NCBI GenBank assembly: GCA_963775245.1
Contig: CAVZID010000037.1
Location: forward strand, 3,175-67,174
Length of the DNA: 64,000 nucleotides
Direction of reading: 5' to 3'
Source: an uncultured Bacteroidota bacterium
GTDB taxonomy: Bacteria; Bacteroidota; Ignavibacteria; Ignavibacteriales; Ignavibacteriaceae
Under the pieces are notes generated by a model. The model saw only the letters and a list, made by a program, of their open reading frames with translations, was not told the origin of the DNA and searched no databases. The translations under genes and the position numbers were made by a program. Position 1 is the first letter of the stretch, and every line of letters begins with the position of its first letter. This document shows, piece after piece, positions 21,540-26,691 of this stretch.

Positions 21540-22424
21540 CTATCTATAAGCAAAAATCATTGCATAAATTATCCAAATAATAATACTAAATCCAATGCTC
21601 AATGCAGTCCAGCCAAAAAACTTTATTGTTCTGATTACAATGGGAGGATAAGGTTCAACCAAATAATTTTCTAGCTCGCCTTTTTCAACAAGTTCTTTAT
21701 ATTCATCTGGCCTATCATCCTTAAATTCTTCAATTGAAACTCTGCCTGAAAAAATCACAATGTCCATAGGAAATTTTTCGGGGCGAAGGTGAGTATTAAA
21801 AAAATGTATTGTAAAAATAAAACCAGTTGCAAGAAGGGCTTCATCACTATGAATTATTGTTGCAACATTAATTACCCAGCCAGGTAAAAAATTAGTTAGT
21901 AATTCCGGGAACCAAAGTGTTAACCCTGTTGAACCAATTACAACCATCCCCCAAAATACAGCGAAGTAGTCAAACTTTTCCCAATAAGTCCATCTGCCAT
22001 ATTGTGGCCTTTCACCTTTGCCAATAAACCATTTCATCGAATCCCTAAAATCATTCCAATCTTTTTTATTAAACATCATTGAATCTTTATTAAAGATAAA
22101 TTTCAGCAACGAAAGTTTTTCTTTCTTTTTGATTTTTAAGATGTTAACAATGTGTGTTATAAAAACACTAATCATAATTACAGCAGCAAATCGGTGAATA
22201 TAACCTGCAGATTCAAAACCACCTAATAGGTGAGAAAGAATAACTGCCCAGCCGGTATATGAAAATTTCAAAGTCATTCCAGTCAAGGCTAAGGTCATGA
22301 AGCTAACGATCATAAGTATGTGGAGAACACGATTTAATCTTGTAAACCTTTGAAACTGCAGTTGAGTTTTTTTAAGATATTCAGTTTTAGGAATATGATG
22401 TTCAGTTGTCTTCACCAGGTTCAT
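21540..22424 (-). CDS. integral-membrane dihaem cytochrome b-type subunit
   Basis: It has four or five TM helices, with His pairs 13-14 residues apart on two helices ([15 protein letters not shown] and [16 protein letters not shown]). It is a paralogue of the C-terminal domain of the 24487-26691 protein. Its start overlaps the upstream gene by 23 nt. Confidence 0.7.
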   Translation of the reverse strand: [294 protein letters not shown]

Positions 22425-24486: not shown

Positions 24487-26691
24487 TTATTTATCATCGA
24501 GTTTATCGCTCTCGGTTTCTACTCTTGATTCTTTAATTTTCTTAAGCTCTAACGGATGCTCTTCTTCCATTTCTTCTTCCGACAATTTACCGTTGAACCA
24601 GGCAGTGTTCATTGGGTAAACATCAGGATTAAAAATTATAAAGTAAAAATGCCAAACAACAATAGCTAAAAAAGCAAGCCAGGCTTCATAAAAATGAATT
24701 GTGTTCGCAATATCCCAGCCAAGCTTTGTAAAGATTCCAATAAACGTATTATCAAACCACATTATAACGCCGGTTACAGACATAACAATTGTTCCCCAAA
24801 CCAAAGCCCAATATTCAGACTTTTCAACATAACTAAATCTATCAAGTTTAGGCTTTTGTTTAGATATCCCAAGGTTGAAAGAAGCTACACCAATGGCATC
24901 AGTTAAATCTTTATACTTTGGCAATAAGTCTTTAAATAATTGGCGTCCTCTTTTTGTAAAAATTAAATATCCGATATGATAAACACTTACAGAAACCATA
25001 ATCACAGCTGCAATCCTATGAAGTATGCTTCTTATTTCAAAAGTATATTCGCTCAAGTCCCTAATATGCTGCACCCACCATGTATTTGGGAACCGCAACA
25101 TAAATCCGGTTATCACTAAAGTAATAAAACTGGCCGCGAGCAGGATATGCTGCACTCTTTCATTAGCTGTCATCCTTAGATACAAACCATGCCCGTGTAC
25201 TTCAGGCCTTAACATTCCGCTTTGTCTTAATTTTTTTATCTTTGCCTTTTTAATGAAATCAAACAAGTTATGCAAGAACATAAATCCAATGACAAGGATA
25301 ATTAAAATGATGTACATTGAAGAGATCCAATAAAGTATTGGCTCAGATTTTTGTGCTACAGTAACATGAATTTTACCTACAGCAAAGTTTTGATTTGCTC
25401 CCGGATGACATTTACCACAAGTTTTAGCAAGGTTCTTCTTATTTATTGTTGAAAGAGGATCACTTGCAGGTAAAATATTATGAACCCCATGACAGCTTGC
25501 ACAATTGGCTACAATGGTAGAACCGCCTTCAAGAGCAAGTCCGTGATAACTGTTCATATATGTTTTAAATCTATCCGGTGCAAGTCCGTATTTCTTTGTT
25601 AACTTTACTGAGCTATGGCATGGAGAACAAACCTGTGTTGATACATTTTGAAATGCCACAGGAGATTTAGGATTTGAGGGTTGTAAAATATTATGTTCAC
25701 CATGACAGTCAGTACATACAGGTGCGTCTAAATTTCCTTTAGCAACTTCTTTTCCGTGTATACTTTTTTCGTATGTATTTTTAATATCTGTGTGGCATTG
25801 TCCGCATGTATTAGGAACATTAGTTTTATATACTGTAGATTTTGGATTAGAACCTGGCAATATCTCATGAGCACTATGACAATTTATACAGGTAGCTACT
25901 TTACCATTTCCCTTTTGAAGTGCTGATCCGTGCACACTATGTTCGTAAGCAGAAATAAATCCCGCAGATGGGGCAGTTCTCCCTCTAACGTCCGGATTAT
26001 TAAGATGACATGATAAACACAATTTTTCTTGTGCTTGTTTTAATTTAGTTATATCCTCTTTACCGGATACATCTGCAACTGAATATTTATGACAGGTAAG
26101 ACAATATGGGGCACCCGCAATTTTGTTTTTAAATCCTTGATAATGAAGTGATTGTGTGTATTGCCCTACTTCTTTGCTATGACATTTTCCACATGAATTT
26201 ACTAGATTATTTTTACCCCATTTTGAATCCGGATTCTTAGGAGAAATTATATCATGAGTTCCATGACAGTTCCTGCATGACATATCAGGGGAACCATTTA
26301 TTCCATTAGCTTTTAATAACTGTGGATGAAAGCTATGTTTTATTGGTGCGTCTCTGTGACAAGTAAGACAATTTATCGGAGTTATATTTTCTTTATGAGG
26401 AATATTGTTGGGATCAAAACCTACGTGGCAAGATACACAATTTAATTTTCCGTGAACTGAATGAGTGAATACTTTCGAACTAACATATAACGAAACTTCT
26501 TTACCGTTTCTTTCAGTAGTTAAAGTATTATCGTCATGACACATCAGACAGTCGTCATTTGTTTGAGGGTAGATGTTTTGAGAGCTGACAATCAGGCAGA
26601 TTATAAGACTAACTATAAAGTACACTAACTTTTGCAGTAGATTAGTTTCCACTTTCATTTTGTGCGATGGTCGAGACTGTCCGATGTGCAT
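24487..26691 (-). CDS. 13-haem c-type cytochrome fused to a dihaem cytochrome b membrane domain (CbcL-like architecture)
   Basis: I counted 13 CXXCH motifs and four doubled-CXXCH units. A TM helix follows, and then a C-terminal ~230-aa domain homologous to the 21540-22424 protein. The true start may be the internal MKVETN at 26658. Confidence 0.9.
   Translation of the reverse strand: [734 protein letters not shown]

What the first reader, a model, noticed from the sequence alone, without database searches (positions are those of the whole stretch)
21540..26691. The same cytochrome c - TM anchor - cytochrome b module occurs twice in tandem, once fused and once split
Residues ~505-734 of the 13-haem protein align end-to-end with the separate 294-aa protein. 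Matching blocks are [116 protein letters not shown] and [45 protein letters not shown]. Both haem domains open with the same [13 protein letters not shown] motif. The 19-haem protein ends with the TM helix plus basic linker that precedes the b domain in the fusion. This is therefore a tandem duplication captured in two states, a natural gene fusion/fission pair. The split genes overlap by 23 nt (22402-22424). The b frame is open only 12 nt upstream of its ATG, with a stop at 22437-22439. A single indel would have to fall within 22403-22436 to fuse them, and no long homopolymer lies there. A genuine split therefore looks more likely than an assembly error, even though this assembly has frameshifts elsewhere.
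Basis: seen in the sequence. Interest (0 to 1): 0.6.

Follow-up and report, generated by a model that had tools for sequence, protein, structure and literature searches.

The report
Fused and split CbcL-like cytochromes
An Ignavibacteriales operon encodes two old, related membrane "quinol-to-multihaem-cytochrome" modules, one as a single protein and one genuinely split into two; the arrangement is conserved in hundreds of genomes and belongs to the known CbcL/ImcH type of electron-export machinery.

Summary
One minus-strand operon encodes four proteins. A734 has 13 CxxCH, a TM anchor and an FdnI-type dihaem b domain. B683 has 19 CxxCH and a C-terminal TM anchor. C294 is a separate b subunit that overlaps B683 by 23 nt. 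D496 is an ImcH-like heptahaem.

The two b domains share 33% identity (E 9e-29) and the c domains about 30% (E 3e-60). The split is real. Three same-genus genomes align without gaps across the junction, and 66 of 80 related loci are split, with junctions in all three frame relations.

A and B-C are not a recent tandem duplicate caught in two states. They are ancient paralogues, each conserved as its own orthologous group in Ignavibacteriota, Acidobacteriota, Gemmatimonadota and Eisenbacteria. The fused counterpart of B-C is a 19-haem protein of about 950 aa, found in 13-14 of the 80 loci. A 2018 survey already listed such proteins as CbcL homologues.

The trees do not settle the direction or the number of fusion/fission events.

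A histidine in the anchor helix is invariant, and in the split pair it sits on B683. This is a new member of a known kind, of modest interest.

The parts
24487..26691 (-). A734: fused CbcL-like protein with signal/N-terminal helix, 13 CxxCH, anchor TM, cytoplasmic basic linker and four-helix dihaem b domain
   Evidence: orthologues in 5011 proteins at E<=1e-5
25258..25338 (-). A734 anchor TM helix (about residues 452-478) carrying the invariant His474
   Evidence: hydropathy; His invariant in 53 aligned sequences
24529..25182 (-). A734 b domain (residues 504-721), FdnI fold; haem-ligand candidates H515, H558, H666, H681, plus invariant H572
   Evidence: AF2 model pLDDT 87.9; top PDB hit 1kqf_C, TM 0.81
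22402..24453 (-). B683: 19-haem periplasmic cytochrome c (8+8+3 haems, internal duplication) ending in one TM anchor and a polar tail; the likely start is the ATG at 24420
22498..22581 (-). B683 C-terminal anchor TM helix (about residues 625-652) with conserved His649 (motif G-x-H-T-x-x-W-L-P-R)
   Evidence: the His is present in all 66 split B tails (63 fit the strict motif, 3 differ at one position)
22402..22424 (-). 23-nt overlap between the B683 stop (TGA) and the C294 start (ATG); C294 is in the +1 frame relative to B683
   Evidence: the same geometry (26 nt) in three same-genus genomes, with no indel
21540..22424 (-). C294: separate dihaem cytochrome b subunit with five TM helices; H35, H77, H192 and H207 align with FdnI H18, H57, H155 and H169
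20014..21504 (-). D496: ImcH-like inner-membrane cytochrome (3 TM, CX3CH + 6 CxxCH, NapC/NirT homology), the last gene of the operon
   Evidence: syntenic in most of the 80 loci; same length and haem spacing as Ignavibacteria ImcH homologues in PMC6295460

Best explanation
The region is a conserved four-gene operon for inner-membrane menaquinol:multihaem-cytochrome oxidoreductases, of the kind that Geobacter uses to start extracellular electron transfer.

Components:
- A734 is a one-polypeptide CbcL-like enzyme. A 13-haem periplasmic wire is joined through an out-to-in anchor helix and a short basic cytoplasmic linker to an FdnI-type four-helix dihaem b domain.
- B683 and C294 form the same kind of enzyme from two polypeptides. 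A 19-haem wire is held in the membrane by its C-terminal helix. That helix is inferred to dock on the separate five-helix b subunit, as FdnH docks on FdnI and as hydrogenase small subunits dock on their cytochrome b.
- D496 is an ImcH-like NapC/NirT-type quinol dehydrogenase.

Proposed mechanism: quinol is oxidised at the b subunit, probably near the cytoplasmic-side haem as in FdnI run in reverse. Electrons pass through the two b haems to the periplasmic c haems and then to periplasmic or outer acceptors.

The anchor-helix histidine is invariant (A734 H474, B683 H649), which suggests the helix is a working part of the quinone/haem-b site and not only an anchor. In the split pair that residue is supplied in trans.

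Evolution: A and B-C are ancient paralogues. The B-C orthologous group exists in nature in both states, split in the window's clade and fused elsewhere, so gene fission or fusion has occurred at least once. The nearest outgroups and most of the wider family are fused, which weakly favours fission on the way to the window's lineage.

Shown here: homology, fold, conserved histidines, synteny, the reality of the split and the existence of both states. Inferred: complex formation, direction of electron flow, physiological acceptor and direction of the evolutionary change.
For: - Domain content and haem counts.
- Paralogy.
- The FdnI relationship: a profile of C-like proteins hits 1kqf_C at E 3.2e-14 over its full length, with all four haem-ligand His aligned.
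- Fold: AF2 models of the A734 membrane part (pLDDT 87.9) and of a fused B-C orthologue (pLDDT 81.7) each have 1kqf_C as their only significant PDB match, with TM 0.81 and 0.75.
- Six invariant TM His, including the anchor His, in 53 sequences. The anchor His is present in all 66 split B tails.
- Topology from hydropathy.
- Reality of the split.
- Both states among orthologues.
- Synteny of A, B, C and D in 80 loci from at least four phyla.
- Wider family: 88 fused against 28 split-like among 150 representatives, with the B-C clade nested among fused rows.
- Literature: CbcL is a fused 9-haem c plus dihaem b protein with six TM helices and His in TM1-3 and TM5. CbcBA is a two-subunit form in which the c subunit's TM helix supplies a His (bioRxiv 10.1101/2021.04.15.440034; bioRxiv 10.1101/2023.05.03.539133).
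- Prior listing: PMC6295460 lists Ignavibacteria 952- and 944-aa 19-haem six-TM proteins with B683's haem spacing as CbcL homologues, and 496-aa proteins with D496's spacing as ImcH homologues.
Against: - There are no expression, proteomic or read-level data.
- I could not align directly with G. sulfurreducens CbcL or ImcH because no sequence was at hand. The link rests on the 2018 survey and on shared architecture.
- A734 has five TM helices, not the six of CbcL.
- B683-C294 complex formation and the role of the anchor His are inferred.
- Whether the module oxidises quinol or reduces quinone cannot be read from sequence. The 2018 survey also found no distinguishing feature.
- The direction and number of fusion/fission events are unresolved. 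AU tests do not reject a single fusion (p 0.177), or a single fission (p 0.158 and 0.235). The basal position of the fused rows disappeared when the junction columns were removed.
Confidence: 0.8

Rival explanations
1. The split is an assembly or sequencing frameshift, and the organism really makes one fused protein of about 950 aa with 19 haems.
For: The assembly does show broken genes elsewhere. A roughly 65-haem gene lies in four frame pieces at C12:102598-107539. An M13-peptidase-like ORF pair overlaps at 43116-43186. Fused orthologues exist in other genomes.
Against: Three other genomes of the genus align without gaps across the junction at about 77% nucleotide identity, with the same ATG and the same frame relation. 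66 of 80 loci are split, with junctions in frames 0, +1 and +2 and spacings mostly between -50 and +50 nt. Split forms carry 20-45 extra polar residues that fused forms lack. There is no homopolymer in the 34-nt interval where an indel would have to fall.
Confidence: 0.02
2. A recent local tandem duplication produced the two modules, and one copy then underwent fission.
For: The two homologous modules are adjacent, share the same domain order and share the same N-terminal NDDC..CH motif.
Against: The modules share only 30-33% identity. The A b domain lies outside all 120 family representatives in the broad tree. Both paralogues are conserved as separate groups across at least four phyla. The repeat inside B683 (39.5% identity) is closer than A is to B. 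The opening motif is found across the family.
Confidence: 0.04
3. The split state is ancestral for the B-C group, and the 13-14 fused orthologues arose by fusion through deletion of the stop/start junction. The window would then show the older state, and the fused forms would be the derived ones.
For: With the A b domain as outgroup, the first-branching B-C rows are split. With junction columns removed, a 20-row all-split clade branches at the unresolved base of the ingroup. Fused linkers are shorter, as expected after a deletion. FdnH/FdnI and hydrogenase relatives are two-subunit (established knowledge).
Against: The nearest outgroups (P0002-P0008, P0011, P0014) are fused and include three 19-haem proteins. 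88 of 120 classifiable representatives are fused. The A outgroup branch is very long, so that root is unreliable.
Confidence: 0.3
4. A programmed +1 frameshift or stop read-through at the B-C junction makes both a fused and a split product from the same mRNA.
For: C294 is in the +1 frame with a 23-nt overlap. In 14 split loci the two genes are in the same frame, separated by the stop and 3-27 nt.
Against: There is no recognisable slippery or RF2-type site in 22402-22436. Junction geometry differs between lineages in all three frames, so no recoding signal is conserved. Every split locus that could be scored has a start codon for C.
Confidence: 0.03
5. The modules run in the opposite direction, as quinone reductases that take electrons from outside (Fe(II) oxidation or electron uptake), like MtoC.
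For: The 2018 survey groups CbcL, MtrH and MtoC in one family and found no feature that separates oxidisers from reducers. FdnI itself reduces menaquinone (established knowledge).
Against: The operon carries an ImcH-like gene, which in Geobacter is a quinol oxidase of metal reduction. No mtoAB-like genes lie in the window. Ignavibacteria relatives listed in the survey include the Fe(III) reducer Melioribacter roseus (and my own knowledge of that organism).
Confidence: 0.2

Closest known systems
CbcL of Geobacter sulfurreducens (GSU0274), and the CbcL/MtrH/MtoC family of Zhong and Shi 2018 (PMC6295460)
   Same: An N-terminal periplasmic multihaem c domain, an anchor helix and an FdnI/HydC-like dihaem b domain. 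[quoted passage not shown] Fused B-C orthologues (952 and 944 aa, 19 haems, six TM) are already listed in that family.
   Different: A734 has 13 haems and five TM helices, against nine and six in CbcL. B683/C294 carries 19 haems and is cut into two polypeptides between the anchor helix and the b domain. Two paralogues sit side by side next to an ImcH-like gene, whereas the Geobacter genes are at separate loci.
CbcBA of Geobacter sulfurreducens (GSU0593-0594)
   Same: A two-subunit arrangement: a multihaem c subunit with a single C-terminal TM helix that carries a His, plus a separate dihaem b subunit.
   Different: CbcB is described as related to NiFe-hydrogenase cytochrome b, with three His in the b subunit and no sequence homology to CbcL. 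C294 has all four FdnI-type His and is an orthologue of the b domains of CbcL-type fused proteins. The gene order here is c then b.
E. coli formate dehydrogenase-N FdnH/FdnI (PDB 1KQF)
   Same: The b subunit fold and four His ligands (TM 0.75-0.81; profile E 3.2e-14). The periplasmic electron-transfer subunit is anchored by a C-terminal TM helix beside a four-helix cytochrome b. The N terminus is cytoplasmic.
   Different: The periplasmic partner here is a 13- or 19-haem cytochrome c, not an Fe-S protein. C294 has an extra fifth helix. Electron flow is probably reversed (quinol oxidation).
ImcH of Geobacter sulfurreducens (GSU3259)
   Same: D496 has three N-terminal TM helices, seven haem sites and NapC/NirT homology. 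496-aa Ignavibacteria homologues are listed in PMC6295460.
   Different: The first haem site is CX3CH, here and in all 59 orthologues examined. The gene is co-operonic with the two CbcL-like modules.

Membership tests
FdnI/HydC-type prokaryotic cytochrome b561 (Pfam PF01292) | Profile match above the curated cut-off | tested here: met
   A734 scores 58.3 bits and C294 36.9 bits against a 30.1-bit cut-off. TIGR01583 matches both, but below its equivalog cut-off.
FdnI/HydC-type prokaryotic cytochrome b561 (Pfam PF01292) | Four His haem ligands on TM1, TM2 and TM4 (two on TM4), aligned with FdnI H18, H57, H155 and H169 | tested here: met
   C294 H35, H77, H192 and H207 (A734 H515, H558, H666, H681) are invariant or nearly so and align with the FdnI histidines in the profile alignment to 1kqf_C.
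FdnI/HydC-type prokaryotic cytochrome b561 (Pfam PF01292) | Four-helix-bundle fold of FdnI | tested here: met
   1kqf_C is the only significant PDB match of both models, with TM 0.81 and 0.75. C294 itself was not modelled; a fused orthologue about 70% identical to it was.
FdnI/HydC-type prokaryotic cytochrome b561 (Pfam PF01292) | Binds two b haems and reacts with menaquinone | not testable with these tools
   Needs spectroscopy of the purified protein.
CbcL-type bc cytochrome | Multihaem c domain and dihaem b domain on one polypeptide | tested here: met
   Met for A734. Not met for B683/C294, which are two ORFs here and in 66 of 80 loci. Met in 13-14 orthologous loci.
CbcL-type bc cytochrome | Six TM helices after the c domain | tested here: inconclusive
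   By simple hydropathy plus alignment, A734 has five (anchor + 4) and B683+C294 have six together (1 + 5). The 2018 survey accepts members with four to six.
CbcL-type bc cytochrome | [quoted passage not shown] | tested here: met
   Invariant His occur in the anchor helix, b TM1, b TM2 (two) and b TM4 (two). The pattern is the one described for CbcL.
CbcL-type bc cytochrome | Significant sequence similarity to G. sulfurreducens CbcL | not tested
   No CbcL sequence was reachable, and the control genomes lack Geobacter. Indirect evidence: PMC6295460 lists OGU58019.1 and OGV21847.1 as CbcL homologues. Their 19 haem positions match B683 within 2-4 and 6-7 residues respectively.
CbcL-type bc cytochrome | Required for reduction of low-potential extracellular acceptors | not testable with these tools
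   Needs genetics and electrochemistry.
CbcBA-type two-subunit bc cytochrome | Separate c subunit with a C-terminal TM helix, plus a separate b subunit | tested here: met
   B683 and C294.
CbcBA-type two-subunit bc cytochrome | b subunit of the hydrogenase/thiosulfate-reductase type with three His, the fourth supplied by the c subunit | tested here: not met
   C294 carries all four FdnI-type ligands. Its relatives are the b domains of CbcL-type fusions. B683 is therefore not filed as CbcA, nor C294 as CbcB.
ImcH (for D496) | Three N-terminal TM helices, seven haem sites and NapC/NirT homology | tested here: met
   Three TM helices. Six CxxCH plus one CX3CH. PF03264 at 42 bits against a 24.1-bit cut-off. 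Same length and haem spacing as the listed Ignavibacteria ImcH homologues.

The most novel reading that the evidence does not exclude
The invariant anchor-helix His, together with the second invariant His at the cytoplasmic end of b TM2 (A734 H474 and H572; B683 H649 and C294 H91), might form an extra haem or quinone site. This could be the alternative b-haem ligation that the CbcBA preprint (bioRxiv 10.1101/2021.04.15.440034) suggested as a redox-potential gate in CbcL. Cutting the protein exactly between the anchor helix and the b domain would then put half of that site on an exchangeable subunit. If so, fusion versus fission would tune gating or subunit exchange, and the two CbcL-like paralogues together with ImcH would form one potential-graded quinol-oxidase set encoded in a single operon.
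Probability: 0.1. Interest if true: 0.55.

Novelty: new member of a known kind. Interest (0 to 1): 0.3.

Why it matters
It gives a well-documented natural case of one respiratory module existing in the same protein family both as a single chain and as two chains. The cut falls precisely between the anchor helix and the cytochrome b, and the anchor keeps an invariant histidine.

This is useful for people who study CbcL, CbcBA and ImcH. It points to the anchor helix as a functional element. It also offers natural fused/split orthologue pairs at about 70% identity for testing whether covalent linkage matters.

The survey also shows that the two CbcL-like modules and the ImcH-like gene form one widespread operon in Ignavibacteriota, and occur in rearranged order in Acidobacteriota. 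That operon is a candidate genomic marker of cytochrome-based electron export in uncultured soil and sediment bacteria.

It does not reveal a new kind of system.

Tried and rejected
- **Single-sequence PDB search.** phmmer of C294 against PDB sequences found nothing at E<=1. Only the profile reached FdnI.
- **Promoter and terminator scan of 19700-27400.** It gave no more sites than shuffled sequence, so operon boundaries rest on spacing and strand alone.
- **Reaching Geobacter.** The 14 control genomes of the genome search do not include it, so I made no direct alignment with CbcL, CbcBA or ImcH.
- **Programmed frameshift.** Rejected for lack of a conserved site and because junction geometry varies.
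- **Polarising fusion versus fission.** The b-domain tree needs 5 changes. The concatenated tree needs 3 and placed fused rows basally. That placement vanished when junction columns 652-729 were dropped. AU tests reject neither a single fusion nor a single fission.
- **His-His distances.** Model coordinates are not exposed, so they could not be measured.
- **Literature search.** Searches for a prior description of the Ignavibacteria cluster found only the 2018 catalogue and passing mentions.
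Full report
**1. The observation**

Four co-directional minus-strand ORFs fill 20014-26691:
- A734 at 24487-26691.
- B683 at 22402-24453. This ORF opens with TTG; the first ATG is at 24420.
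- C294 at 21540-22424.
- D496 at 20014-21504.

The gaps are short: 33-66 nt between A and B, a 23-nt overlap between B and C, and 35 nt between C and D.

A734 has 13 CxxCH motifs, B683 has 19, C294 has none, and D496 has six plus a CX3CH. Pfam places PF01292 (Ni_hydr_CYTB) above its cut-off on A734 507-689 and on C294 26-206. It places multihaem c families on the rest of A734 and on B683, and NapC/NirT on D496. NCBIfam gives only sub-threshold matches to formate dehydrogenase gamma subunits.

BLASTP confirms both homologies. A734 504-721 aligns with C294 24-247 at 33% identity, E 9e-29. The c domains align at about 30% identity, E 3e-60. A second HSP aligns A734 18-477 with B683 205-652, which puts A734's anchor helix on B683's terminal helix.

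- The overlap is 22402-22424.
- C294 is in the +1 frame relative to B683.
- A TAA lies at 22437-22439.
- There is no homopolymer in 22403-22436.

There is one correction. C294 extends 47 residues beyond the aligned part and has a fifth TM helix that A734 lacks.

**2. The split is real**

The window lies in a 5.9-Mb, 44-contig Ignavibacteriales MAG. Comparative evidence settles the question instead.
- Among 40 relatives, the C294 orthologue is a stand-alone open frame of 279-327 aa in 13 genomes, down to 52% identity in other families of the order. The A-type fused gene is present in nearly all of them.
- Three other genomes of the genus align with window 22340-22500 without a single gap at about 77% nucleotide identity. 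They have the same ATG and the same frame relation, and their B stop lies one codon later.
- In the best 80 of at least 594 genome loci, B and C are separate in 66. The junctions occur in all three frame relations, with spacings mostly between -50 and +50 nt.

An assembly frameshift or a conserved programmed frameshift does not fit this pattern.

**3. What the two modules are to each other**

They are paralogues, but old ones. A and B-C each form their own orthologous group. They are found side by side, usually with D, in the order A|B|C|D in Ignavibacteriota. In Terriglobales the order is D|B|C|A. The groups also occur in Gemmatimonadota, other Acidobacteriota and Eisenbacteria MAGs.

A search of 1.84 billion cluster representatives found 423 with E<=1e-30 to C294. 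In a tree of 138 b domains, the A clade sits on a branch of about 2.5 substitutions per site, outside all 120 representatives.

B683's own c domain is an internal duplication. Residues 50-286 align with 294-528 at 39.5% identity, E 1e-52, giving 8+8+3 haems. That repeat is closer than A is to B.

A734 is therefore not the fused version of B683+C294. The real fused version exists elsewhere. 13-14 of the 80 loci carry one 19-haem ORF (923-1024 aa stop to stop) covering B and C. In these the cytoplasmic linker is about 20 residues, whereas split genes carry 20-45 extra polar residues around the stop and start.

**4. Direction of change**

This is not resolved.
- The b-domain tree needs five state changes.
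- A concatenated c+b tree, rooted on three fused 19-haem representatives, needs three. At first it placed fused lineages basally.
- After I dropped the junction columns, that basal grade dissolved and starred branches force only one change.
- AU tests reject neither a single fusion (p 0.177) nor a single fission (p 0.158 and 0.235).
- In the wider family, 88 of the 150 best representatives are fused and 28 are split-like. Some of the split-like ones may be truncated gene calls. The B-C clade is nested among fused rows.

I read this as weak support for a fused ancestor with fission leading to the window's lineage, and I keep the opposite reading at 0.3.

**5. What it does**

A profile of C-like proteins matches E. 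coli FdnI (1kqf_C) over its full length at E 3.2e-14. The four haem-ligand histidines are aligned.

AF2 models were made of the A734 membrane part and of a fused B-C orthologue. Their pLDDT values are 87.9 and 81.7. Each has 1kqf_C as its only significant PDB match, at TM 0.81 and 0.75.

Topology follows from the N-terminal signal helices and from hydropathy. The c domain is periplasmic. The anchor helix runs out-to-in. The basic linker is cytoplasmic. The b domain starts in-to-out, as in FdnI.

Across 53 A and fused B-C sequences, six TM histidines are invariant. These are the four ligands, a second His at the cytoplasmic end of TM2, and a His near the cytoplasmic end of the anchor helix. All 66 split B tails keep that anchor His. 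In the split pair it sits on the c subunit.

This matches published descriptions of the Geobacter enzymes. CbcL has one His in each of its first three TM helices and two in the fifth. In CbcBA and in Wolinella hydrogenase, the periplasmic subunit's TM helix supplies a His.

I therefore propose that B683 and C294 assemble into a two-subunit CbcL-like menaquinol:cytochrome c oxidoreductase, that A734 is its one-chain paralogue, and that D496 is an ImcH-like third quinol oxidase. The genome encodes 22 ORFs with at least four CxxCH motifs, which fits a cytochrome-based electron-export lifestyle. The direction of flow and the acceptor are inferred.

**6. Comparison with what is known**

Both architectures are described in Geobacter. 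CbcL is the fused form. CbcBA is two-subunit, but it is said to share no sequence homology with CbcL. [quoted passage not shown]

The 2018 survey PMC6295460 lists two Ignavibacteria proteins as CbcL homologues. They are 952 and 944 aa long with six TM helices. Their 19 haem motifs sit within 2-4 and 6-7 residues of B683's positions respectively. The survey also lists 496-aa Ignavibacteria ImcH homologues with D496's spacing.

What I did not find described:
- the split form of this CbcL-type lineage;
- its predominance, 66 of 80 loci;
- the conserved A-B-C-D operon;
- the invariant anchor His.

These are additions within a known kind.

**7. Verdict**

- Novelty: a new member of a known kind.
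- Interest: 0.3.

Noticed in passing
window 22402-24453 (B683 residues 50-286 and 294-528): The 19-haem c domain is itself an internal tandem duplication of an 8-haem unit (39.5% identity, E 1e-52). Three more haems follow it. The NDDC..CH opening motif recurs at residue 294.
   Followed up: partly
window 21100-21117 (D496 residues 130-135): The first haem site of the ImcH-like protein is CX3CH (CGTLCH). The same CX3CH spacing is present in all 59 orthologues examined, so it is a conserved feature and not an error.
   Followed up: yes
window 26804-26965, minus strand: A 53-codon single-TM ORF lies upstream of A734. It has tblastn matches (E 3e-19 to 8e-4) at the equivalent position, at or just upstream of the A gene's start, in 8 of 80 related loci. 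It may be a small conserved membrane protein of the operon.
   Followed up: partly
own genome C6:9956-12152 and C38:3689-5885: These are two further split pairs, each an 8-haem cytochrome c (525 aa) followed by a 241-aa PF01292 cytochrome b (103.5 bits). The two copies are 94% identical at nucleotide level, so they are either paralogues or strain or bin duplication.
   Followed up: partly
own genome C40:348059-349531 and C40:350280-350528: An 11-haem ORF (490 aa) lies about 750 bp from a weak PF01292-like match. In many related loci an 11-haem gene sits beside the A-B-C-D cluster, but in this genome it lies on another contig.
   Followed up: no
own genome C12:102598-107539: Four consecutive, overlapping same-strand ORFs carry 20, 7, 9 and 29 CxxCH motifs.
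   Followed up: no
window 41666-43186 and 43116-43580: Two overlapping same-strand ORFs (506 and 154 aa). The second contains an HExxH motif (HEITH). This may be one metallopeptidase gene split by a frameshift.
   Followed up: no
loci L038, L039, L043, L053, L056: B-C genes from MAGs labelled Eisenbacteria, Acidobacteriota and Hyphomicrobiales form one tight clade nested among Ignavibacteriota rows. Ignavibacteriota and Acidobacteriota C orthologues are still 63-70% identical. This suggests either horizontal transfer of the cluster or mis-binning.
   Followed up: no
window 43973-46508: A cydA/cydB-like pair (434 and 335 aa) lies 17 kb from the cytochrome operon. The organism therefore probably also has a cytochrome bd quinol oxidase. 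This was judged from the N-terminal sequences only.
   Followed up: no
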